IMG/VR virus record: IMGVR_UViG_3300021399_000157
Span: 3,032-67,031 of that record
Direction: 5' to 3' (one strand)
DNA: 64,000 nt
Origin: a virus
Lineage: Duplodnaviria; Caudoviricetes
Shown: positions 3,322-64,000 of the stretch, piece after piece
Position numbering within the stretch: the first letter of the stretch is position 1
Layout of the letters: every line of letters begins with the position of its first letter
Position numbers and translations under genes: made by a program
The notes under the pieces: model-generated
What the model was told of the DNA's origin: nothing
The model's input: the letters and a program-made list of their open reading frames with translations, nothing else
The model's database searches: none

Positions 3322-4122
3322 TTATATCTTTATTAATTTACCTTTTTTTAGTAAATCTAGCATCTTTTTATTTTGACTAGGTAAACCTACATAAGCAGTT
3401 ATTCCATTCTTTTTTGCTATCTTCTTTCTATAACTAAATGAACTATCTACCCCTATTGCTTTTAATCCATCTACTATACTTACTGATTTACCTGTATATT
3501 TTTTGTAATAAGATACACTAGGTTTAGTTTCTTTTTTTAATGGTGGTAAATATTGAAATTTTATATTTCTTGTTTTTAATACTTTTGTGAAGTTTTTATC
3601 TATATAAAATATATCTTCAGGTTTTCTACAATCTCCTTTAGTTACATATTTTCCTCTAGAATTTTTTACTGATTTATTAGCACTTCCTATTCCACAAGTA
3701 AAATGTAAATGATTAGCAGTTGCAGTTTCTTTACCTTCCAAGCATATAGGTTCTCCTGCTTTAAACACTTTTCCTTTTTTTATTCCAAATTTCTTTACAT
3801 CACTATCTTCAAAATGTACTGCAGTCATAAATATTTGATGATAACCTATTGGTGTATGTACTTTTTTTGTTGATACTAAAAATACTTTGTTAGATACTTT
3901 ACCATTACCTATTCCTTGTACATTTGTTACTTTCATATCTATAGGACTAAAAAGATAATCTCTCCCACCATCTTCTCCTCCCAAATCAGTAGGAAAATCT
4001 TTTGGTGTAGCACCATACCAATGTGCTTTGTGATTTCCTTCATTGTATGATTGAGTAATTTTCATATAATGCATAGGAAATTTAGCATAATCTTCATATC
4101 CTTTTGTAAAATGAAATGCCAT
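3322..4122 (-). CDS. Endolysin, M23-type metallopeptidase with C-terminal cell-wall binding domain
   Basis: H...D and NHLHF zinc motifs; Lys-rich C-terminal domain; follows holin; RBS GAGGAG favours start 4122. Confidence 0.75.
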   Translation of the reverse strand: MAFHFTKGYEDYAKFPMHYMKITQSYNEGNHKAHWYGATPKDFPTDLGGEDGGRDYLFSPIDMKVTNVQGIGNGKVSNKVFLVSTKKVHTPIGYHQIFMTAVHFEDSDVKKFGIKKGKVFKAGEPICLEGKETATANHLHFTCGIGSANKSVKNSRGKYVTKGDCRKPEDIFYIDKNFTKVLKTRNIKFQYLPPLKKETKPSVSYYKKYTGKSVSIVDGLKAIGVDSSFSYRKKIAKKNGITAYVGLPSQNKKMLDLLKKGKLIKI

Positions 4123-24501: not shown

Positions 24502-26040
24502 CTATTGTCCTCTCTTCTTCCATATATTATTTAATGCATAGCGTGTGGCATCTATGCAATGGTTGTTTGCATCCACATATCCACTTATGTAATTGTCATC
24601 TTTATCCTTTTCATATTCATATGTACTAAACTCTTCAGTTGCTTCAGGGCATCTTTTAGGGTCTATAACTATTTTTGCTAATGCACTTAACCACTTCATA
24701 GAATATTCAACACTTCCTGCACCTTTTTCTGCACCTCTCATAGAAGCACCATAACTTCTAAAATCTCCTATTGATTTAGGTTCTGCACTATCACTTATAA
24801 TCATATCATTCTCTGTAACTCCCTTTAGGTTCTTTAAATCCTCCCATACATCTGCATTACTTTTCTTATTTACCACATACTCATCAAATATATATAAAGT
24901 CCTAGTTGATGGATTAAACGAACACTTTATCCAAGCAAGAGGGTCAGGAAACCATCCAAAGTCCATTCCCATATAAATATAATCAAAGTTCTCTATCTCT
25001 TTATCAGTTATTTCTCTTAACTCTATATTTTCAAATACTTGACCACCTACACCTGTCATTAATCCTAGATATTCATTCTCATATAACTTCTCATTGATGC
25101 TCTTTAGAAATTCTGCTTCATCTATAAATGCTTGACCTAACCACTTTTTAGGTACTGCTCTATAATCACTTAAGTGTACTAGTCTAGTATCTTTTGGTAT
25201 TAACTTCTCTATATTTACAAAGTGTTGTGTACTTGCAGGTGTATTATATGAATAGAATTGAATAAAATCATCTCCACCTCTTATTAAGGATTGATTTATT
25301 TTTCTTGTTTCATTCATTCCTGCAAATTGGTCAAACTCTTCATACCAAGTTATACCAACATACATATCTTTTGGTGTCTTTAATGATTTAATCTTTCCAT
25401 AATCATCTGCACCTCTAAAGTATATCTTTTGACCTGTACTTAATTTAGTTATCTCTAAAGGTGATTTAGTAAACTTATAATCCTCTTTAATATGTGGATA
25501 TGTTTCTCCTAGTGTATCTACTGCCCATTCTAATTGACTAAATACACTATCCTTTAATGTATCTTTAACTTTTCTTAATACAACACAACACATTTTAGGA
25601 TTTTGTTCTAGTAGTTCAATTATCTTTTCACTTATAAAAGATGATTTGGTACTACCTCTTCCACCTTCTAGATAAAACTCTCTATAATCTCTATCATCTA
25701 TTGCTCTATTTACATCTGCAAAACTAGATGCTATATCTTTAGCAGGTAATACAACATATACTTCTTGCTTCTGTTCATCGTGGTCTTTCTTATCCATTAA
25801 ATCTTGTATTATTTGATAGTTCTTACTACTACCACTTACTGCACCTTTTATTAATCCTAAAGTTGCTAACTCTTGATATGTCTTACCACTTTTTTGCTCT
25901 GTTTGATTTAATAGCATCTCTAGGTCTTGTATCATAGTTCTTTTTCTTCTTCTTGCTTCTCCTGATGCTATTCCACCTTTCTTCGCTTCCTCTTCAGTTA
26001 ATTTGTGTCCTTGAGGTATTAGGTTTTGTTCGTTTGCCAT
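24502..26040 (-). CDS. terL: Terminase large subunit (PBSX-like) with N-terminal TerS-like KGG extension
   Basis: Walker A GGRGSTKS, Walker B WYEE, nuclease GMDFG and NHCIDATRYA; N-terminal MANEQNLIP...AKKGGIASGEARRRKR. Confidence 0.92.
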   Translation of the reverse strand: MANEQNLIPQGHKLTEEEAKKGGIASGEARRRKRTMIQDLEMLLNQTEQKSGKTYQELATLGLIKGAVSGSSKNYQIIQDLMDKKDHDEQKQEVYVVLPAKDIASSFADVNRAIDDRDYREFYLEGGRGSTKSSFISEKIIELLEQNPKMCCVVLRKVKDTLKDSVFSQLEWAVDTLGETYPHIKEDYKFTKSPLEITKLSTGQKIYFRGADDYGKIKSLKTPKDMYVGITWYEEFDQFAGMNETRKINQSLIRGGDDFIQFYSYNTPASTQHFVNIEKLIPKDTRLVHLSDYRAVPKKWLGQAFIDEAEFLKSINEKLYENEYLGLMTGVGGQVFENIELREITDKEIENFDYIYMGMDFGWFPDPLAWIKCSFNPSTRTLYIFDEYVVNKKSNADVWEDLKNLKGVTENDMIISDSAEPKSIGDFRSYGASMRGAEKGAGSVEYSMKWLSALAKIVIDPKRCPEATEEFSTYEYEKDKDDNYISGYVDANNHCIDATRYALNNIWKKRGQ

Positions 26041-26053
26041 TCCATCACCTCCT

Positions 26054-26153
26054 TACTTTATTATAAGTACTATAGAATAGATATACATCAAAATCCAATT
26101 GCGAATATGCTCTTAATTTATATATCTACTCTATGCTACCTATAATGTAGCAT
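26054..26153 (-). ncRNA. Structured non-coding element, family copy 1
   Basis: TAGAATAGATATA / TATATCTACTCTA arms, GTAC and GCTAC flanks, flanking mini-hairpins. Confidence 0.55.
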
Positions 26154-26186: not shown

Positions 26187-26486
26187 TTATTTTCTTTTCT
26201 TATTTTCTTTTTCCCATTCACTATATGTAAAACTATCCCATTTTGAATGTGTTGCACCTGATTTACTTACAGGTGGTTTTTTATATTTTTCTTCAAATCT
26301 ATCTACTAGATTATCCACATTATCTTGCCACCAACTACCATAGTCTGCTACATTTTCATTATCATAGTAACTTTCTTCTTCAGGTTCTTTTGCTTTTGCT
26401 ACTGCTTTCTTGCTTGTTTTTTGTATCTTACCTTTGCTACTTGATGCACCTCTTCCACCAAATAATTGTATATTTAACTCTAACAT
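26187..26486 (-). CDS. FGGRG-leader protein 5 (unknown function)
   Basis: Starts MLELNIQLFGGRGASSS. Confidence 0.75.
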   Translation of the reverse strand: MLELNIQLFGGRGASSSKGKIQKTSKKAVAKAKEPEEESYYDNENVADYGSWWQDNVDNLVDRFEEKYKKPPVSKSGATHSKWDSFTYSEWEKENKKRK

Positions 26487-27148
26487 TATTTTAACCTCAC
26501 TTTCACATATATATTACCATTCTTACTCCCTACACTCTCAACTTTATACTTTTGATTTCTTGCAAGTAATACCTCTTTTTGTGGGTCTCTTGCTTCTACC
26601 TCTCTTATCCTTTTAGTAGGTTTCTTCATTATATCCAATCCTCTAGTCTTTTTATTTGTATGTATTTCCATAATGATTGGTTTTGTACTACCAAAAAAGT
26701 ATTTGTTATTTTCTGCTATTCCTAAACTCTTTGTTGTACTCATAAATCCTTTTTCTGTATGGTCTTTATTAATGGCATTGTTTATCCTGTTATTTACTTG
26801 TTTTGCTATACCTTGTGAATATGCACCATTTCCTTTTGAATAAACTCCATATACTAGTTCTTCTACCATATTTGCATATTCACCATCTGTCATATTTCCA
26901 AATATTGCACTTGCATCTGTGGTTCTATATAATATTTCATCCTTTATTTTGTCATTAGTAAGTATATCTAGTTCTTTTAAATATACTTTATCATCATCAG
27001 TAAAGTCTATCTCATCATCTAATCCTCTTAAGTAGTTATTTATCCACATTCCTTGACCACTTACATAATATTCTAAAGACATATCATAGTTGCCTGTTGA
27101 TGATGTAGCACCTCTGCCTCCAAATAGTTGTATATTAAGTTTTAGCAT
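26486..27148 (-). CDS. FGGRG-leader protein 4: R-S-E clade (VIP2/C3-like) ADP-ribosyltransferase
   Basis: MLKLNIQLFGGRGATSS; INNYLRG, LYRTT, GFMSTT, QKEVLLARN. Confidence 0.85.
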   Translation of the reverse strand: MLKLNIQLFGGRGATSSTGNYDMSLEYYVSGQGMWINNYLRGLDDEIDFTDDDKVYLKELDILTNDKIKDEILYRTTDASAIFGNMTDGEYANMVEELVYGVYSKGNGAYSQGIAKQVNNRINNAINKDHTEKGFMSTTKSLGIAENNKYFFGSTKPIIMEIHTNKKTRGLDIMKKPTKRIREVEARDPQKEVLLARNQKYKVESVGSKNGNIYVKVRLK

Positions 27149-27157
27149 ATATACCTC

Positions 27158-27706
27158 CTAAATCATCTTAACTCTTTTGTTATCAAACACTATATATTCT
27201 CTTTCTTTACCTTGTACATTTAATTTTGCTATTACTACATCATACTTTTTACTTTTAGCAATTTTCTTCAAATCTATATTACCCTTCATTAATTGGTGGT
27301 TCCCTATTTGTTGCCATCTTTTCATATTTTGTATAAATGCTTCTTCTCCATCTAACTTACCTATAGGACTTGCATATTTATATAACTCTTTAAAATCTTT
27401 TACTTTTGCAAAATCCAATGGTTTATTTACATTTATTTTAGCATTATAAACTCTACCTTTTGCACCTTTTTTATCAAAAAACATACTATCTGTTTCTATT
27501 CTTTCATAACTAAAATCATCTGCAAATTGTTTGCTATCTGTAAAATAAATACCATATTCACCTGATGATGTATTTAATCCTGATAAAGATATATCAAAAC
27601 TTTCTATGTTAGCATTTGGACTTCCGTGATATAATGTTCTTTTTATTATGCTATTACTAAAACTTGCACCCCTACCTCCAAATCTTTGGATATCTAAATC
27701 TAACAT
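27158..27706 (-). CDS. FGGRG-leader protein 3: H-Y-E clade ADP-ribosyltransferase-like (ART-PolyVal-like)
   Basis: MLDLDIQRFGGRGASFS; LYHGS, GIYFT, EYIVFD. Confidence 0.7.
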   Translation of the reverse strand: MLDLDIQRFGGRGASFSNSIIKRTLYHGSPNANIESFDISLSGLNTSSGEYGIYFTDSKQFADDFSYERIETDSMFFDKKGAKGRVYNAKINVNKPLDFAKVKDFKELYKYASPIGKLDGEEAFIQNMKRWQQIGNHQLMKGNIDLKKIAKSKKYDVVIAKLNVQGKEREYIVFDNKRVKMI

Positions 27707-27708
27707 AT

Positions 27709-28095
27709 CTATCTACCTATTGCTTTCAATATTTGTTTTTTTCTTTCATCTATTATGTTTTTAGCATTTGCTATTGCTTCTTTTCTAGTTGAACCTGTTG
27801 TTATCATTGCCCCATTTGTTTCATTATTTGTTCTTACTACTGCTACATATTTACTACTACCTGCCCTACCTAAATATGGTCTGTTTTTTGCATATGCTTC
27901 TTGTTCACTATTGAATACACCAACATCTATTGTTTTATATCTAAAAGTAACACCCTTTACTTCTATATCTTCTCTTCTACCATCCTCATCCATATTTCTT
28001 GTTGCAGTTGTAAAAGTTGCACTTTTAGGTTCTGTATCTGCATTGCTACTACTAGAACCTCTGCCTCCAAACATTTGAATGTCTAGTTTAATCAT
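27709..28095 (-). CDS. FGGRG-leader protein 2 (unknown function)
   Basis: Starts MIKLDIQMFGGRGSSSS. Confidence 0.75.
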   Translation of the reverse strand: MIKLDIQMFGGRGSSSSNADTEPKSATFTTATRNMDEDGRREDIEVKGVTFRYKTIDVGVFNSEQEAYAKNRPYLGRAGSSKYVAVVRTNNETNGAMITTGSTRKEAIANAKNIIDERKKQILKAIGR

Positions 28096-29119
28096 TCTTC
28101 TTCATCCTCTCTGTTACTTTATTTTCATAATATATTACCTCTATGTCTCCATAGTTATATTCTAATTTACCACCATACACTAGTATTTTAGATGGTTTTA
28201 TCTTTTTAATCATTGCATCCATTCCATCTTTCCATATCTTTAGTGCATCTGTATTTCTTTTTACTCCAATTGTACTTATTGATACTATGCTTCCTTCAGG
28301 TATTCCATCAAAACAAAAATCAAATGTTTCTTCTTCTGCCCAACTTATTGTAGGTATTACCTTTATTCCACATCTTTGATAATATTGTCCAATTAGTCTG
28401 CTTCTATATATATTCCATATCTTCATTGCTATAGGCATATCCATATATAAACTAAAATCAGGACTTAATATGCAATCATAATCTCCTAATACTTCAACAT
28501 ACTCTTGTGGATTATTCCATATTCTTTCAAATTGATAATCATCTAGATAAAAATGTATTCCTACATTCTTGTTTTCACTTGTTTTAGCATAATTAAATCC
28601 CATCAAATCTTTAGGTACATAATTATCATTCTCTATAATAGGCATTTGGTATTTACCATCACAGGCATCTGCATCAAATAGTTCTAGGTTATATGCTTCA
28701 TTGGTTCTTTCTCTTTCATTGATTTTTATTTCAGGTACTTCTATTTCAGGTACTTCTATATCAAATCCATACTTTTCCATATCTATATCTAGGATTTTGT
28801 TTATCTCATCCTGTACCATATCTAAATCCCAAGCAGTATTCATTGTTAATTGATTATGTACTAATAAATATGCTCTTCTTTGCTCATCTGTTAGATAATC
28901 TAACTTAATTACAGGTACTTCTTTTAATCCTAAATCTTTACAAGCAAGGTATCTACCATTACCTTCTACTATCTCATTATTCCATATTGCTATAGGGTCA
29001 TTCATACCAAACTCTTCAATAGATGCTTTTATTTGGTCTATTTGACTTTGTGGATGTAACTTTGCATTTTTATCATATAATCTTAAAGTATCTATGTTTA
29101 CATATTCTATTTGTAACAT
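28088..29119 (-). CDS. ParB/Srx N-terminal domain fused to DUF4417-like domain
   Basis: N-terminal QIKASIEEFGMNDPI..GNGRYLA; C-terminal HFYLDDYQFERIW, PDFSLY.DMP, VIPTISW, FCFDG. Confidence 0.8.
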   Translation of the reverse strand: MLQIEYVNIDTLRLYDKNAKLHPQSQIDQIKASIEEFGMNDPIAIWNNEIVEGNGRYLACKDLGLKEVPVIKLDYLTDEQRRAYLLVHNQLTMNTAWDLDMVQDEINKILDIDMEKYGFDIEVPEIEVPEIKINERERTNEAYNLELFDADACDGKYQMPIIENDNYVPKDLMGFNYAKTSENKNVGIHFYLDDYQFERIWNNPQEYVEVLGDYDCILSPDFSLYMDMPIAMKIWNIYRSRLIGQYYQRCGIKVIPTISWAEEETFDFCFDGIPEGSIVSISTIGVKRNTDALKIWKDGMDAMIKKIKPSKILVYGGKLEYNYGDIEVIYYENKVTERMKKND

Positions 29120-29121
29120 AT

Positions 29122-29523
29122 TTATCTCCTAAAATTATATTCTTTCCCTGTTTTTCTATCTCTTATATATATTGTTCCCTTATATTGATTATATGAAACA
29201 TAAGGGTCTTTAATTCCACCATCTAATGCATCTTGATATATTCCACCTAGTTCTTTTAAATATGACATTGTATATCCACCTGTATTGCTCATAATATATT
29301 TATTGTTTACATATAATGCATTATCAAATGATGTAATATCTAATCTATTTGATAATTCTTTTCTTATTTCTACATTATCACTTAATCTATATCCTGTTGG
29401 ATTATTGTATTCATCTCTTGCTTTTTTTGTCCATTGTTTTGTTCTATTTGTTATTTTTACATTTATATTGCTACTAGAAGAAGCACCTCTGCCTCCAAAC
29501 ATTTGTATATCTAGTTTTATCAT
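29122..29523 (-). CDS. FGGRG-leader protein 1 (unknown function)
   Basis: Starts MIKLDIQMFGGRGASSSS. Confidence 0.75.
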   Translation of the reverse strand: MIKLDIQMFGGRGASSSSNINVKITNRTKQWTKKARDEYNNPTGYRLSDNVEIRKELSNRLDITSFDNALYVNNKYIMSNTGGYTMSYLKELGGIYQDALDGGIKDPYVSYNQYKGTIYIRDRKTGKEYNFRR

Positions 29524-29553
29524 ATTATCACCTTTTTAATTATAACATTATAT

Positions 29554-29976: not shown

Positions 29977-30187
29977 ATATTAATATTAACTCCTCTATCT
30001 CTATATCTCCATTTAGATACTCCCATATCCTGTCTTTCTTCCATTCTTCAAGTTCTAACTGATATAATAAGTTCCTCCAAAATCTTATCTCTTTTTCATT
30101 AAAAAAAGGGCATAAGAGTTCCTGATACATTCCTCTTAATGTCCTTCCATTGTCAATCACAACTTTTAAAATATTATTTCTATCCAT
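29939..30187 (-). CDS. Hypothetical protein
   Basis: ATG at 30187 with AAAGGA RBS (ORF track extends to a GTG at 30217). Confidence 0.5.
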   Translation of the reverse strand: MDRNNILKVVIDNGRTLRGMYQELLCPFFNEKEIRFWRNLLYQLELEEWKKDRIWEYLNGDIEIEELILIYARSIKVNDKGF

Positions 30188-30217
30188 ACTCTTTATCCTT
30201 TGACTACATTTTAACAC

Positions 30218-30270: not shown

Positions 30271-30371
30271 GTGCCATTAATAAGCACCATAGAATAGATA
30301 TAATCCTGAACTTGTAGAAACTGCCATTTTCATATCTACTCTATGCTACTTACATTTTTCCTATAAAGCAT
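30271..30371 (-). ncRNA. Structured non-coding element, family copy 2
   Basis: CATAGAATAGATAT / ATATCTACTCTATG arms; GTGC..GCAC flank hairpin. Confidence 0.6.
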
Positions 30372-30410
30372 TTTTTACTAATTTTGAAAAATATAAATAT
30401 AGATAGTTTA

Positions 30411-30535
30411 GGTACTCTTTATAAGTACCATTGAATAGATATATTTGCTAGACTAGACTTCACTTTCCTAATACCTTAAAAGTGTAATTATAGGTTAATA
30501 TATATCTACTCAATGCTACCTACTAGAGATAGCAT
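30411..30535 (-). ncRNA. Structured non-coding element, family copy 3
   Basis: CATTGAATAGATATAT / ATATATCTACTCAATG arms (compensatory change versus copy 2). Confidence 0.6.
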
Positions 30536-30545
30536 CTACCAAAAT

Positions 30546-30660
30546 CACTTATTTTTATAAGCACCACCTAGATAATAAGTATCTAAAGGGTAACAACTCC
30601 TAAAAGACTAAATGAGTTGTATTCATAACTTACTATCTAGGTGCTACCTACAAAGGTAGC
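30546..30660 (-). ncRNA. Structured non-coding element, family copy 4
   Basis: CACCTAGATA / TATCTAGGTG arms; inner ACAACTC / GAGTTGT hairpin. Confidence 0.6.
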
Positions 30661-30730: not shown

Positions 30731-30874
30731 TTACTTTTTCTTTTCCTTCTTTAATTGTTTTGCTTTTACTCCTGTATAATCAGGATATTTTAATAAATAT
30801 TTTGTTAAGTCTTGCAGACTTTCTAAATTAAATCTTATATTTCCTTTTGGTGTTTCAATTGTTATTTCATACAT
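30731..30874 (-). CDS. Small protein not in the ORF track (47 aa, MYEITIETPKGNIRFNLESL...)
   Basis: Ortholog at 63778-63915 conserved at protein level with mostly synonymous or conservative DNA changes. Confidence 0.75.
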   Translation of the reverse strand: MYEITIETPKGNIRFNLESLQDLTKYLLKYPDYTGVKAKQLKKEKKK

Positions 30875-30959
30875 TAATTATTTTCCTTTTCGTTAGTAAA
30901 TCTTGGTTTTCCCATTAAAATACTTACTAATCTATTGTAATCAACTAAAAGATATCCAT
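30835..30959 (+). repeat. Direct repeat, left copy (identical to 63876-64000)
   Basis: 125 bp exact match read by eye; the match runs to the window end. Confidence 0.9.
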
Positions 30960-31128
30960 ATTGACTTCTAGTTGAAAAATCTTCAATTTTTAAATTATCC
31001 ATATATTCTATTGCTTTATCTATGATATTATTTAGTCTTTCTATTTCTTCATCTTGTTCTAAAACTCGTAACATTAAATTAGCAATGTATTTCATTTGTT
31101 CTTCACTCACTATTTGCTCAACTCCCAT
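30874..31128 (-). CDS. Hypothetical protein (EIERLNNII family)
   Basis: Shares ERLNNII with 31600-31794. Confidence 0.6.
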   Translation of the reverse strand: MGVEQIVSEEQMKYIANLMLRVLEQDEEIERLNNIIDKAIEYMDNLKIEDFSTRSQYGYLLVDYNRLVSILMGKPRFTNEKENN

Positions 31129-31607
31129 CTATATCCATAAGCAGTAGGTTTATTTCCATTACAACACATACTTATAAAACTTTGCTTATATCCTAATTCA
31201 TTTTGTATATCAGTTTGTGAGTTCCACTCTTTTATAAAGTTGCCTTTTAAATCATATTGCTTTACTTTTTTTACTGGTCTATAAAACCTATTATCTCTTA
31301 CACATTGTTGCATATTTTCACTTTGTGTCCCACATTTCAAATTATCTAAATTGTTATTGGCAGGGTTATTGTCTAAGTGCATAACTAAACATTCTTCTGT
31401 ATAATCTTCTAAAAATGTTTTTGCTACTAATCTATGAACTCTAGAATTATGAGTTTTACCATCATAATATAAACCAACATATTTATATTTTCTGTGTGTA
31501 TATTGTTTTAATATCTTTTTATTTTTTTTTACTCTTACATTTCCTAAATTAGAAATTTCATATTTATTCCCATATCCAACTAAATCTTTCCATATCTCAT
31601 TATTCAT
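31110..31607 (-). CDS. Free-standing NUMOD4-HNH-NUMOD1 homing endonuclease
   Basis: EIWKDLVGY..KYEISNLGNVR; VHRLVA...MHLDNNPANNNLDNL; VKQYDLKGNFIKEWNS. Confidence 0.9.
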   Translation of the reverse strand: MNNEIWKDLVGYGNKYEISNLGNVRVKKNKKILKQYTHRKYKYVGLYYDGKTHNSRVHRLVAKTFLEDYTEECLVMHLDNNPANNNLDNLKCGTQSENMQQCVRDNRFYRPVKKVKQYDLKGNFIKEWNSQTDIQNELGYKQSFISMCCNGNKPTAYGYRWELSK

Positions 31608-31794
31608 TATTGTTTTTTCCTTTTAGTTCTTTTAAAATCTCTTGCTTAATATCTTCATAAATATCACAACCTCTACCACTACTACTTAAACTTTCTACAT
31701 ATTTGGTAGTTCTATTTATGATATTATTTAGTCTTTCATTTTCTTCTAATAATCTATCTATCTCTCTTGGCATTTCTTCTATTGATATATTCAT
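31600..31794 (-). CDS. Hypothetical protein (ENERLNNII family)
   Basis: 64 aa, paralogous motif with 30874-31128. Confidence 0.6.
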   Translation of the reverse strand: MNISIEEMPREIDRLLEENERLNNIINRTTKYVESLSSSGRGCDIYEDIKQEILKELKGKNNNE

Positions 31795-31796
31795 AT

Positions 31797-32234
31797 TTAC
31801 TCCTCCGTTTTTATATCATTTATTCTTTTCTTTATTTTTTTTAGTATGTTAAATACTGATGCTCTACTATAACTAGATATCCTAGCTGTTTTTTCTATTG
31901 TTAGTCTATCTATGTATCTGCATCTGTATATCTTGTCGTAAGGGTTATTACTTAATCTTAATTCTTGCTCTTTTAATTTAACTAGTTTTTCTCTATCGTC
32001 TAATATAGATTTTACTTCTTTTAGTCTTTGATCTATATTTTTCTTTTCTTTCTGGATCAAGTATTCGTCGAATGCATTTACTCTTTTTCCTCCTGTTGTC
32101 TTTTCTCCAGTTATTCTAGTTGCTTTCGGCTGTGTCTTTGAGAATAAATCTTCTTTTTCGGTTAATATCTCGTTATATTTCCTTTGTACTTCATAGTGCT
32201 TATTTTTATATATTTCGTATTCTTCAAATAACAA
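31797..32234 (-). CDS. ArpU/RinA-like late transcriptional activator
   Basis: C-terminal YRCRYIDRLTIEKTARISSYSRASVFNI sigma4-like HTH; end of the early region. Confidence 0.7.
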   Translation of the reverse strand: MLFEEYEIYKNKHYEVQRKYNEILTEKEDLFSKTQPKATRITGEKTTGGKRVNAFDEYLIQKEKKNIDQRLKEVKSILDDREKLVKLKEQELRLSNNPYDKIYRCRYIDRLTIEKTARISSYSRASVFNILKKIKKRINDIKTEE

Positions 32235-62854: not shown

Positions 62855-63058
62855 TTACTCCTTTTCTTTATTATAGTTATAGTTTGATACTCCTAGTAAT
62901 GCTCCTAAAAAGGTTGCTACTAGTGATATAGTTCCTACTATTAAAGTTGGATCGAAGTTATATAGTTCTCCTAGTCCTGTTATTAGTGCTATAGTTGGAG
63001 CAACCGAAGTAGCTAGTATCCACTTTAGTACTGTAAATACTTTATTATTTAGTATCAT
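62855..63058 (-). CDS. Holin
   Basis: 67 aa, two TM segments, ATFLGALLGVS; upstream of the lysin. Confidence 0.8.
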   Translation of the reverse strand: MILNNKVFTVLKWILATSVAPTIALITGLGELYNFDPTLIVGTISLVATFLGALLGVSNYNYNKEKE

Positions 63059-63077
63059 TCTTTTCCTCCTTTACATA

Positions 63078-63103
63078 ACAAAAAAAAGACTATCGCTAGT
63101 CTT
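63078..63103 (-). terminator. Terminator closing the phage B ncRNA pair
   Basis: AAAAAAAGACTA-tcgc-TAGTCTT. Confidence 0.65.
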
Positions 63104-63172
63104 CTGATAAGCTCTCTAGAAGGTATACAGGATATGAAAAAAGTTATACCCTCTAGACAGCTCGTCGCTGTC
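63104..63172 (-). ncRNA. Structured non-coding element, family copy 6
   Basis: TCTAGAAGGTATA / TATACCCTCTAGA arms; GACAGC/GCTGTC flank hairpin. Confidence 0.5.
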
Positions 63173-63209
63173 TTCCACCGTTCGTGTCTTAGGGGTTGGT
63201 GCTTTATAT

Positions 63210-63320
63210 GGTACTAATACGTACCTTACTAGATAATAAGCATTCTGATAGTAACAACTCCTAAAAGACTAAATGAGTTGTATTCTTTACCTACTATCTA
63301 GTAAGCTACTTACTAGTATC
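63210..63320 (-). ncRNA. Structured non-coding element, family copy 5 (ortholog of copy 4)
   Basis: CTTACTAGATA / TATCTAGTAAG arms; 35 nt core identical to 30590-30624. Confidence 0.65.
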
Positions 63321-63696
63321 TTTGTAAGTATTTTCTTTTTATAAGTAGCTTACCTTTACTTCCTTTATCCCATTTATGCTCGCTTTCGAACTGTTGGAGT
63401 AAATATTCTATAATTTGTCTTTGATCTTCTGTAGGCTCGGCTCTTTGTTGGTTTATGTATTCAAATATTTTATTTATTGCTATATATGTATCTATATCTT
63501 TATATTCTATCAGGTGTAAATATTGGTGTCCTATTGGCATTAGTAAAGCTCCGTTGCTTATTTCTTGCTTACCTCCGTCACATCTTTTAACTATATGGTG
63601 GAATGTTAAATCTTTTTTTACTAATTTATAGTTAAGCCAGTCTAGATTAGAGTATGGCTTGTAGATTTTTAACATTTCTTTCGTTATATTCTTCAT
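63313..63696 (-). CDS. HNH-like protein (homolog of 29554-29976)
   Basis: LTFHHIVKR.DGG..EISNGALL...HQYLHLIE. Confidence 0.65.
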   Translation of the reverse strand: MKNITKEMLKIYKPYSNLDWLNYKLVKKDLTFHHIVKRCDGGKQEISNGALLMPIGHQYLHLIEYKDIDTYIAINKIFEYINQQRAEPTEDQRQIIEYLLQQFESEHKWDKGSKGKLLIKRKYLQRY

Positions 63697-63777
63697 ATTT
63701 CCTTCGTTTTATATTATCCCTCAATAATATTATTTCATATAAATAGTCTAATTTAGTCTAATGTTACAATTTCTCGT

Positions 63778-63915
63778 CTATTTTTTCTTTTTTAGTTGTT
63801 TCGCTCTTACTCCTGTATACTCTGGATATTTTAATAGATATTTTTCTAATTCTTTTAGACTTTCTAGATTAAACTTTATATTTCCTTTTGGTGTTTCAAT
63901 TGTTATTTCATACAT
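63778..63915 (-). CDS. Small protein not in the ORF track (45 aa, MYEITIETPKGNIKFNLESL...)
   Basis: Ortholog of 30731-30874. Confidence 0.75.
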   Translation of the reverse strand: MYEITIETPKGNIKFNLESLKELEKYLLKYPEYTGVRAKQLKKKK

Positions 63916-64000
63916 TAATTATTTTCCTTTTCGTTAGTAAATCTTGGTTTTCCCATTAAAATACTTACTAATCTATTGTAATCAACTAAAAGATATCCAT
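63876..64000 (+). repeat. Direct repeat, right copy (truncated by the window end)
   Basis: Identical to 30835-30959. Confidence 0.9.

What the first reader, a model, noticed from the sequence alone, without database searches (positions are those of the whole stretch)
63078..63320. Phage B carries two more members of the RNA family, with cross-phage covariation
Seen: copy 5 shares an identical 35-nt core with copy 4 (63251-63285 = 30590-30624), while the closing stem changed on both arms together (CACCTAGATA/TATCTAGGTG versus CTTACTAGATA/TATCTAGTAAG). Copy 6 has a different stem and base triplet (GCU/AGC instead of GUA/UAC) yet keeps the G-G mismatch, the UUAU tail, a G-U pair on the minus strand and the overlapping 5' hairpin. 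The pair again ends at a terminator. The neighbouring HNH-like orthologs are highly diverged, so the RNA is more conserved than the proteins. Inference: selection acts on structure, and the shared loop binds a conserved partner.
Basis: partly seen in the sequence, partly recalled or inferred. Interest (0 to 1): 0.72.

Follow-up and report, generated by a model that had tools for sequence, protein, structure and literature searches.

The report
Phage RNA stalk hairpins with swappable inserts
The two hairpins belong, one clearly and one marginally, to a large uncatalogued family of phage RNA modules in which a conserved 25-29 base-pair double-stranded stalk holds an interchangeable small RNA insert; they probably mark where phage transcripts are cut or kept apart, but that function is untested.

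Summary
Copy 5 (63212-63318, minus strand) is a clear member of a large RNA hairpin family. A covariance model built only from other phages finds it (36.8 bits, E 1e-6) and the four phage A copies. Copy 6 (63102-63170) has the same layout but scores only 19.2 bits.

The module is a 10-bp outer helix, a near-invariant G-G mismatch, a 12-17-bp inner helix and a variable insert ("cargo"). Across 92 distinct units, 95.9% of stalk cells pair (76.5% when shuffled) and 19 of 22 pairs show compensatory changes. Mismatches favour G-U over A-C, so the gene-sense strand folds.

Units are intergenic and lie in a slot that holds tRNA genes and a ROOL RNA in relatives. One relative's cargo is tRNA-like.

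The 35-nt core shared by phages A and B looks like cassette exchange: phage B's closest relative has the identical stalk and copy 6 but a diverged cargo.

The HNH-like gene is not an obligate partner: only 1 of 18 RNA-anchored loci has one.

Most likely role: a double-stranded RNA processing or insulating signal (RNase III type). This is inferred, not shown.

This scan noted the same family before on other DNA. I found no entry in Rfam, GenBank phages or the papers searched.

The parts
63212..63318 (-). Copy 5, a complete stalk-plus-insert unit. Outer helix 63307-63316 with 63214-63223. G-G mismatch 63306/63224. Inner helix 63289-63305 with 63225-63241. Type-I insert 63242-63288, containing a 7-bp hairpin (63275-63281 with 63254-63260, loop 63261-63274).
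   Evidence: Model R1, built without any window sequence, gives 36.8 bits, E 1.1e-6 over the whole window. RNAfold minimum-energy and centroid structures agree. Covariation among 12 type-I units. Coordinates.
63305..63349 (-). Competing 5' hairpin of copy 5. Arm 63342-63349 pairs with 63305-63312, which takes up the 5' strand of the stalk junction, including the mismatch G. It lies in the last codons of the HNH-like gene, whose stop codon (63313-63315) is inside the outer helix.
   Evidence: Read from the sequence. Family-wide, 64% of units have a perfect 7-nt upstream complement to their own junction, against 14% when junctions of other units are tried.
63175..63202 (-). Small hairpin between copies 5 and 6 (CACC/GGUG stem, loop containing AGACACGAAC).
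   Evidence: Conserved in L102 and L103; in L103 the stem reads CACUU/AAGUG, consistent with paired changes, but this was not counted (sequences). The RNAalifold consensus did not predict this pairing.
63102..63170 (-). Copy 6, a divergent stalk-like hairpin with a short loop and no real insert. Outer helix 63159-63166 with 63106-63113. G-G mismatch 63158/63114. Inner helix 63145-63157 with 63115-63127. Its own 5' hairpin is 63155-63173. It is the constant part of the leader in front of the holin gene.
   Evidence: R1 gives 19.2 bits, E 4e-4 in a 501-nt search with filters off, and no hit at E<=1 over the whole window. Homologs at the same place score 24.4 bits (L102) and 22.3 bits (L103). The consensus fold of the three shows only one-sided G-U/G-C/A-U changes and one broken pair. 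It is 100% identical in L095.
63080..63102 (-). Terminator-like hairpin (6-8 bp) followed by eight U, just upstream of the holin ribosome-binding site (63056-63071).
   Evidence: A terminator directly upstream of the holin gene is also seen in L095, L102, L103, L104 and L105.
63313..63696 (-). HNH-like gene P0001 (127 aa), a neighbour of the RNA slot and probably a mobile free-standing endonuclease gene.
   Evidence: Pfam HNH just below its cut-off (20.3 against 21.4 bits). About 800 relatives. HH..N..H residues invariant. AlphaFold model pLDDT 78, with only weak matches, mostly to HNH domains. Absent at the homologous place in phage A.
62855..63058 (-). Holin gene, the first gene after the leader.
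   Evidence: PHROG 881, holin, E 6.5e-22.
30552..30656 (-). Copy 4 in phage A, a type-I unit with the same insert core as copy 5.
   Evidence: R1 52.8 bits.
30275..30528 (-). Two further phage A units (30416-30528 and 30275-30356) with the commonest stalk sequence and unrelated inserts.
   Evidence: R1 56.5 and 43.6 bits.
26058..26148 (-). Solitary unit immediately upstream of the ribosome-binding site of the large terminase gene (24502-26040) in phage A.
   Evidence: R1 52.4 bits; Pfam Terminase_3.
63782..64000 (.). Segment shared with 30741-30959 (93% identical). It forms the upstream homologous flank of the HNH-like gene presence/absence difference.

Best explanation
Copy 5 is a true member, and copy 6 a divergent relative, of a widespread uncatalogued family of phage RNA modules. 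Each module is a 25-29-bp double-stranded stalk: a 10-bp outer helix, a nearly invariant G-G mismatch and a 12-17-bp inner helix. The stalk closes around an interchangeable insert ('cargo').

The modules are transcribed in the gene direction, in the RNA-gene slot at the junction of early and late genes. In related phages this slot also holds tRNA genes and a ROOL RNA.

Shown here: the structure, the strand, the family membership, the genomic context and the exchange of inserts.

Inferred: the stalk acts in cis as a double-stranded RNA signal. Most likely the host RNase III, or a similar double-strand-specific enzyme, cuts it. That would release the insert as a small RNA and separate it from neighbouring tRNAs and mRNAs. 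It would also keep each insert folding independently of its neighbours.

A 5' hairpin that competes for the 5' strand of the stalk probably holds that strand until its own 3' partner has been transcribed. This would prevent pairing with the complementary strand of a neighbouring unit.

The 35-nt core shared by phages A and B is a cargo cassette moved by recombination at the conserved stalk.

Copy 6 is the fixed, insert-less hairpin of the structured holin leader, which ends in a terminator.
For: Family membership:
- A model built from 27 units of other phages finds five window copies on the minus strand, E 7e-12 to 1e-6.
- It finds 98 hits in 593 kb of related loci and 31 in 18 contigs from metagenome-assembled genomes.
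- A simple descriptor gave 62 hits against 0 in shuffles.

Structure:
- 95.9% of cells pair against 76.5% in shuffles, and 34-51% when partners are slid.
- 19 of 22 pairs show changes on both sides; 0 of 500 shuffles reach the observed values.
- In the type-I subset, 97.7% of cells pair and 8 pairs show double changes.

Strand: with strand-neutral detection, non-Watson-Crick cells are G-U 271 against A-C 42. Hits lie almost all on the gene-sense strand.

G-G mismatch: it is the dominant mismatch even when not required, 82 of 145.

Stalk length: 25-29 bp, seen in folds and in outer-helix covariation.

Context:
- Only 1 of 98 units lies inside an ORF. Units form clusters of 1-4 spaced 20-90 nt apart.
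- tRNA genes occupy or flank the same slot.
- A ROOL RNA sits there in L089.
- A tRNA-like insert sits inside a stalk in L085 (RF00005, 37.7 bits).

Cassette exchange:
- L095 has an identical stalk and flanks but a diverged insert.
- One inner-stem sequence occurs with at least 12 insert clusters, and 11 insert clusters occur with two or more different stems.

Competing 5' hairpin: it covaries with the stalk junction.

Precedent, from general knowledge: stems of about 26 bp flanking 16S and 23S rRNA, and the T7 and SP82 intercistronic hairpins, are RNase III substrates.
Against: - No cleavage, RNA ends or even transcription of 63078-63320 were seen. The same-sample metatranscriptome holds only low-depth contigs elsewhere in phage B.
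- RNase III has no sequence signature that could be tested here.
- Arrays of up to five units with no ORF between them are more than mRNA processing needs.
- A near-invariant G-G mismatch, with conserved neighbouring bases, hints at a specific binding partner rather than a generic double-strand enzyme.
- Some units have almost no insert, so releasing cargo cannot be the only role.
- Terminators follow only 10 of 51 clusters, so the promoter-to-terminator unit seen in phage A is not general.
- Copy 6 has no compensatory double change in its main stem and only a marginal model score.
Confidence: 0.5

Rival explanations
1. The units are stable small RNAs in their own right. The stalk, with its G-G mismatch, is a handle bound by a dedicated phage or host protein. 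That protein protects, localises or presents the insert, as the Ro protein does with Y RNAs, whose bacterial forms carry a tRNA-like module.
For: The G-G mismatch and flanking bases are near-invariant while neighbouring pairs covary. One insert is tRNA-like, with its acceptor stem stacked on the stalk. Some insert types are conserved and have their own covarying hairpin. Phage A has an ORF-free array followed by a terminator-like hairpin and preceded by a candidate promoter that I read by eye and the scan did not list.
Against: No Rfam Y RNA family, or any other family, matched even at permissive thresholds. No candidate binding protein is consistently adjacent. Inserts range from almost none to over 130 nt and are mostly unrelated to each other. 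No abundant small RNA was seen, though the library was not suited to finding one.
Confidence: 0.2
2. The hairpins are regulatory leader elements that control read-through of the downstream terminator into the lysis and late genes. They would act by antitermination or attenuation, with the competing 5' hairpin acting as the switch.
For: In phage B the order is copy 5, copy 6, terminator, holin. Copy 6 plus the terminator form a conserved block in front of the holin gene in L095, L102 and L103, and a terminator precedes the holin in L104 and L105. The phage A array also ends in a terminator-like hairpin. Mutually exclusive 5' hairpins covary with the stalk.
Against: Only 10 of 51 clusters have a terminator-like site within 130 nt downstream, against 7 upstream. 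Units lie next to tRNAs, after stop codons and directly before ribosome-binding sites in many contexts. L104 and L105 have the terminator without any canonical unit at E 0.001.
Confidence: 0.12
3. The elements act as DNA. They could be conserved inverted repeats that serve as target or landing sites for the neighbouring HNH-like homing endonuclease, or as packaging or replication sites.
For: Among 69 loci anchored on the HNH-like gene, 39 have a unit and 25 have one within 60 nt of the gene, on either side. The gene is present in phage B and absent in phage A between homologous flanks. The conserved stalk DNA is where insert exchange has its boundaries.
Against: Mismatches are strand-specific, G-U far above A-C. 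Units are oriented almost always with the genes. Compensatory changes keep pairing rather than sequence. Protein-binding inverted repeats separated by 30-190 variable bases would be unusual. Only 1 of 18 RNA-anchored loci has the HNH-like gene. A DNA role for the endonuclease could coexist with an RNA role for the transcript.
Confidence: 0.07
4. One reading: the RNAs guide, or are cofactors of, the adjacent HNH-like protein.
For: Frequent adjacency. The weak profile and fold matches of P0001 include HNH domains of RNA-guided nucleases such as IscB and Cas9.
Against: P0001 has 127 residues, little beyond the nuclease core plus three helices. The matches concern the HNH fold only, with E values of 0.045 or worse. 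Rfam's HEARO (omega RNA) model does not match. Units are common without the gene, and inserts are not conserved as a guide scaffold would be.
Confidence: 0.03

Closest known systems
RNase III processing stalks: leader-trailer stems around 16S and 23S rRNA, T7 intercistronic sites R0.3-R18.5, Bacillus phage SP82 early-RNA sites, B. subtilis scRNA precursor
   Same: A double-stranded helix of about two and a half turns, formed by sequences on either side of an RNA that is to be released. It is interrupted by a small internal mismatch and lies between cistrons or RNA genes of a polycistronic phage transcript. The phage copies share sequence.
   Different: Cleavage is untested here. The stalk is a reusable module whose interior is swapped between dozens of unrelated inserts, including tRNA-like ones and nearly empty ones. 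It occurs in tandem arrays. It carries a near-invariant G-G mismatch and a covarying competitor hairpin.
Bacterial Y RNAs (YrlA)
   Same: A long stem formed by the 5' and 3' ends plus a variable module, which in one relative (L085) is tRNA-like. Phage-encoded examples next to tRNA genes are known from the literature; I recall this and did not check it.
   Different: No Rfam match. No conserved bulged Ro-binding helix. Inserts are mostly not tRNA-like. No Ro ortholog was examined.
ROOL and GOLLD RNAs
   Same: The same genomic habitat: prophages or phages of gut and rumen bacteria, next to tRNA genes and possibly co-transcribed with them (PMC5737381). A ROOL RNA sits in the same slot in L089.
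   Different: Those are RNAs of about 580-800 nt with a conserved ornate fold. These are hairpins of 57-190 nt in which only the stalk is conserved.
Integron attC sites and other cassette-exchange systems (comparison of working principle only)
   Same: Conserved imperfect inverted repeats whose structure is kept more than their sequence. They have conserved unpaired bases and bracket variable cassettes that are shuffled between elements.
   Different: attC sites act as single-stranded DNA, are recombined by an integrase and flank genes. Here the evidence points to RNA folding, no integrase is linked, and the cassette lies inside the hairpin.

Membership tests
   36.8 bits, E 1.1e-6 over the whole window, model positions 1-70 of 70.
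   19.2 bits, E 4e-4 in a 501-nt search only, with 3 of 10 outer pairs non-standard. Homologs L102 and L103 score 24.4 and 22.3 bits. The layout is right, but there are no compensatory double changes.
   Both copies lie on the minus strand between the HNH-like gene and the holin gene. G-G at 63306/63224 and at 63158/63114.
RNase III substrates | Staggered cleavage by RNase III within the helix | not testable with these tools
   Only assembled contigs of RNA runs were available, and none covers the region.
RNase III substrates | About 20 bp or more of near-continuous double-stranded RNA | tested here: met
   Copy 5 has 10 + 17 bp around one mismatch. Copy 6 has about 7 + 13 bp.
Any Rfam 15 family (including Y RNA/YrlA, HEARO/omega RNA, tRNA, ribozymes) | Score at or above the family's gathering threshold | tested here: not met
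   No match in the window at gathering thresholds. At E up to 5, only far-sub-threshold chance-level matches, mostly to microRNA precursor models. ARAGORN finds no tRNA.
Intrinsic terminator (63080-63102) | G+C-rich stem-loop followed by a run of U | tested here: inconclusive
   A 6-8-bp stem with only 2 G-C pairs and then eight U. Predicted by RNAfold and conserved in L102 and L103, but below the scan tool's criterion.
HNH endonuclease (Pfam PF01844), for the neighbouring protein P0001 | Profile score above the gathering cut-off; HH..N..H catalytic motif | tested here: inconclusive
   20.3 bits against a cut-off of 21.4. H33, H34, N48, H57 and H61 are invariant in 19 relatives. Fold matches are mostly to HNH domains, but with E of 0.25 or worse.

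The most novel reading that the evidence does not exclude
The stalk is the handle of a modular 'RNA cassette' system in phages. Diverse small RNAs, including tRNA mimics, are expressed from a common double-stranded scaffold that a dedicated factor recognises at the G-G mismatch. The cassettes are swapped between phages by recombination at the conserved stalk DNA. The HNH-like endonuclease genes that nest beside the arrays promote this exchange. In effect this would be an integron-like exchange system for non-coding RNAs.
Probability: 0.12. Interest if true: 0.85.

Novelty: new variant of a known kind. Interest (0 to 1): 0.6.

Why it matters
If the inference is right, many uncultured gut and rumen phages carry a standard "socket" for small RNAs. 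It would be a conserved double-stranded stalk into which unrelated inserts, tRNA look-alikes among them, are plugged and exchanged between phages.

That would give a handle for finding phage small RNAs that ordinary searches miss because only the stalk is conserved. It would also point to a processing or recognition step shared by hundreds of phages.

The family is not in Rfam. It was not found in GenBank phage records or in the papers searched. It would therefore be a new, well-supported RNA class whose function can be tested directly with RNase III assays and end-mapping.

For this window, it also corrects the reading of the shared 35-nt core: this is cassette exchange, not unusual conservation.

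Tried and rejected
- Rfam at gathering thresholds and at permissive thresholds on both arrays: only far-sub-threshold, chance-level matches, mostly to microRNA precursor models. ARAGORN on the window found nothing.
- Public RNA runs. The same-sample metatranscriptome X18 and two others, laid as contigs, cover only scattered parts of the terminase, HNH and endolysin genes at depth 2-7. Nothing covers 63078-63320. This says nothing either way about a small RNA.
- A metagenome scan for type-I inserts with a free closing stem gave one locus, cut at the contig end.
- blastn of both arrays against GenBank phages found no match.
- Supplementary files of the 10,006-candidate viral RNA paper (PMC10690425) are not held as text, so I could not check whether the motif is listed there. 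Two further literature searches found no description.
- A 3' companion hairpin (GGUGCUU..AAGCACU) looked plausible by eye but showed no covariation signal (5.78 self against 5.67 cross).
- Complementarity between the insert's hairpin loop and a repeated TTAGACTAAAT motif upstream of the HNH-like gene: the motif is no commoner than chance. Dropped.
- Long-range stalks enclosing tRNA clusters or the ROOL RNA: none found in 12 loci.
- A terminator after each array as a general feature: not supported, 10 of 51.
- PHROGs gave nothing for P0001, P0002 or P0003. The Foldseek search of the P0001 model gave only weak HNH-domain matches.
- The first MAFFT alignments of units with different inserts were partly out of register. 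I used the model-based alignment A5 instead, which leans towards the modelled structure.
- Retron, CRISPR-repeat, miniature transposon, packaging-site and promoter readings were considered from the sequence. I set them aside for lack of the defining partner or because of the strand-specific pairing. No scan for a reverse transcriptase gene was run.

Full report
**Setting**

The window is 64,000 bases of a single 67,031-bp contig. The contig holds two related phage genomes of about 33-34 kb laid end to end, with nearly all genes on the minus strand.

Phage B runs from about 31.6 kb to the end of the window. In transcription order, the region in question reads:
- a small gene shared with phage A at 93% identity;
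- an HNH-like gene (63313-63696);
- the two hairpins;
- a terminator-like hairpin;
- the holin gene (PHROG 881) and a CHAP endolysin gene;
- a canonical HNH gene, two ParB-like genes and others;
- the terminase genes.

**Check of the observation**

- The 35-nt identity is exact and maximal.
- The closing stems differ on both arms and still pair.
- Copy 6 has the described G-G mismatch, G-U pair, overlapping 5' hairpin and UUAU.
- A hairpin with eight U follows. Its stem has too few G-C pairs for the simple terminator scan.
- The 276-nt region folds with z = -6.6 against shuffles.

One amendment is needed. The helix does not end at the GUA/UAC triplet. It runs on for about 10 bp in all, pairing the bases upstream of GUAG with the 'UUAU(AAAG)' tail. 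The whole stalk is therefore 25-29 bp, interrupted by the G-G mismatch.

**The family**

An exact search with the insert core found five viral contigs, each with arrays of three units. A search that left the insert loop and the closing stem free added three more.

I then fetched 72 loci through the HNH-like protein. A plain descriptor (GUAG, a 12-bp stem, G, URC) gave 62 hits against none in shuffled sequence.

I built covariance model R1 from 27 units, none from the window. Its results:
- Window, minus strand: the four phage A copies at 43.6-56.5 bits and copy 5 at 36.8 bits (E 1e-6).
- Related loci: 98 hits in 593 kb, almost all on the gene strand.
- Contigs of metagenome-assembled genomes from human and ruminant guts: 31 hits in 18 contigs.
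- Copy 6: only 19.2 bits, significant only in a local search.

**Evidence for RNA structure**

On the 92 distinct aligned units:
- 95.9% of stalk cells form standard pairs, against 76.5% when 3' partners are shuffled and 34-51% when they are slid.
- 19 of 22 pairs have changes on both sides, in 323 cells against 73 expected.
- No shuffle in 500 reaches any of the observed measures.

That alignment was fitted to the model and so leans towards it. However, a MAFFT alignment of the 12 type-I units gives the same picture: 97.7% paired and 8 pairs with double changes, including one in the insert's own 7-bp hairpin.

With a detection rule blind to strand (Watson-Crick pairs only), the remaining cells are G-U 271 times and A-C 42 times. 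The gene-sense strand is therefore the one that folds, which argues for RNA.

Without being required, G-G is the dominant mismatch at the junction of the two helices, 82 of 145. It is G in 89 and 90 of the 92 units.

About two thirds of units also have an upstream hairpin whose 3' arm is the stalk junction itself, with the mismatch G paired. It covaries with the junction: 64% perfect complements against 14% for junctions of other units. This structure competes with closure of the stalk.

**Context**

- Units are intergenic; 1 of 98 lies in an ORF.
- They form clusters of one to four spaced 20-90 nt apart.
- Many start within a few bases of a stop codon, and some end just before a ribosome-binding site.
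- In relatives, the same slot holds tRNA genes on the same strand.
- In L089 the slot holds a ROOL RNA (163 bits). ROOL is a class known to sit near tRNAs in prophages (PMC5737381).
- In L085 the insert inside the stalk is itself tRNA-like (RF00005, 37.7 bits), with its acceptor stem formed by the inner end of the stalk.

Inserts are otherwise very diverse, from almost nothing to more than 130 nt. There are at least 39 sequence clusters among 91 units. The commonest inner stem occurs with at least 12 insert clusters, and 11 insert clusters occur with two or more different stems. That clustering is rough.

**The shared core of copies 4 and 5**

L095 is a near relative of phage B; its HNH-like protein is 92% identical. 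Across roughly 40 nt upstream and about 185 nt downstream of the insert, L095 is essentially identical to phage B (one base difference and a 2-nt shorter U run, both in the terminator). That stretch includes the stalk of copy 5 and all of copy 6.

The insert of copy 5, however, is replaced by a diverged type-I variant with a paired change in its hairpin. The boundaries of the difference lie inside the inner stalk.

The insert of phage B is therefore closer to that of phage A, L001, L002 and L004 than to that of its own nearest relative. This is the mark of cassette exchange at the stalk. It is not evidence that the RNA evolves more slowly than the proteins.

The hairpin loop of the insert is also not constant among type-I units.

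The 'recent DNA transfer' part is largely met. The 'stems do not covary' part is clearly not met.

**Copy 6**

Copy 6 is the fixed part of a structured holin leader of about 170 nt. It is identical in L095. It is present with small changes in L102 and L103, in front of the same terminator and holin gene. The unit upstream of it, by contrast, is type I in phage B and L095, an unrelated unit with a large insert in L102, and absent in L103.

Its changes are one-sided (G-U to G-C or A-U) and keep the pairing, apart from one broken pair. It has the family's layout, but its membership is not settled.

**The HNH-like gene**

P0001 belongs to a large and well-conserved family. The HH..N..H residues are invariant. 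The Pfam HNH score is sub-threshold. There is no PHROG match. The fold matches, though weak, are mostly to HNH domains.

In 25 of 69 loci anchored on this gene, a unit lies within 60 nt, on either side. Among 18 loci found through the RNA alone, only one has such a gene within about 4 kb.

The gene is present in phage B and absent in phage A between homologous flanks. This fits a free-standing mobile endonuclease gene that settles in or near RNA arrays, as is known for phage tRNA regions (general knowledge). It does not fit an obligate protein partner of the RNA.

**Mechanism**

What is shown is a conserved double-stranded stalk that brackets exchangeable inserts, within RNA-gene arrays and between cistrons.

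The most economical reading is a cis-acting double-stranded RNA signal of the RNase III type. It would release or delimit the inserts and separate neighbouring RNAs, with the 5' competitor hairpin guarding the 5' strand until its partner is made. That guard would be useful because adjacent units have mutually complementary strands (cross-unit pairings).

I put this at about 0.5. No cleavage or transcript data could be obtained.

The near-invariant G-G mismatch and the ORF-free arrays keep a 'stable RNA with a dedicated binding partner' reading alive (0.2). For copy 6 in particular, a role in controlling the terminator in front of the lysis genes is possible (0.12). DNA-level roles (0.07) and guide-RNA roles (0.03) are unlikely.

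**Relation to earlier notes of this scan**

Earlier follow-ups on other genomes described the same or a closely related 'conserved 25-29-bp stalk with varied cargo' in gut and rumen phages, and similar modules in other phage tRNA regions.

I tested the claims that bear on this window independently: stalk length, the tRNA-shaped insert, the competing hairpin and the position next to tRNAs. All four held.

I found no entry for this family in Rfam 15, in GenBank phage records or in the papers searched.

Noticed in passing
window 26440-29525 (ORF starts at 26486, 27148, 27706, 28095, 29523, minus strand): Five otherwise different ORFs share a 49-nt 5' coding segment. It encodes a common N-terminal leader (M.L.IQ.FGGRG-like) that resembles the cleavable N-terminal extension of ribosomal protein L27. 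The ORFs surround a ParB-DUF4417 gene (28088-29119).
   Followed up: no
window 30741-30959 = 63782-64000; contig start = window 31622-31816: The two phage genomes are joined through shared segments. In the source-sample DNA run, the long contig stops at 63905, and a 216-nt contig covering 63876-64000 has about twice the depth (180 against 96). The tandem arrangement may therefore be an assembly path through a repeat rather than a physical tandem.
   Followed up: partly
window 31110-31607 (minus strand): A NUMOD4-HNH_3-NUMOD1 homing endonuclease gene lies in the roughly 660 bp that separate two segments of phage A. The counterparts of those segments in phage B are the end and the start of the contig. 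This is a second free-standing endonuclease gene close to the RNA slot.
   Followed up: no
L089 2516-3121: A full-length ROOL RNA (163 bits) lies in a related phage. It is followed by four tRNA genes, a stalk unit (3757-3913) and the HNH-like gene.
   Followed up: partly
L085 305-463 (tRNA model hit 326-443): A stalk unit whose insert scores as a tRNA (37.7 bits). It has a 46-nt insertion at the variable arm and two non-standard pairs in the anticodon stem. The acceptor stem is the inner end of the stalk and there is no CCA.
   Followed up: partly
L002 4825-4883, L060 389-448, L061 2580-2636, L087 2284-2340 (strand opposite to the HNH-like gene): Short, nearly insert-less stalk hairpins (57-60 nt, 51-57 bits) lie on the other strand, about 1.5-3.5 kb from the HNH-like gene. 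They are presumably in an oppositely transcribed module.
   Followed up: no
window 29987-30190 (P0003); L040 4836-5096; L051 5211-5444: A small protein (68-86 aa) ending in a conserved WEYLN motif often follows the RNA array and precedes ParB-like and terminase genes. It has no Pfam or PHROG match.
   Followed up: no
window 63745-63765 (minus strand); L103 about 990-1015: A tandem TTAGACTAA-like repeat lies upstream of the HNH-like gene in phage B and upstream of the holin leader in L103. It may be an operator or promoter element.
   Followed up: partly
L098 1888-2874 (also L099, L100): A gene-free stretch of about 1 kb lies after an HNH-like gene that is 81% identical to P0001. It holds at least two stalk units (27 and 59 bits), and the rest is unexplained.
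   Followed up: no
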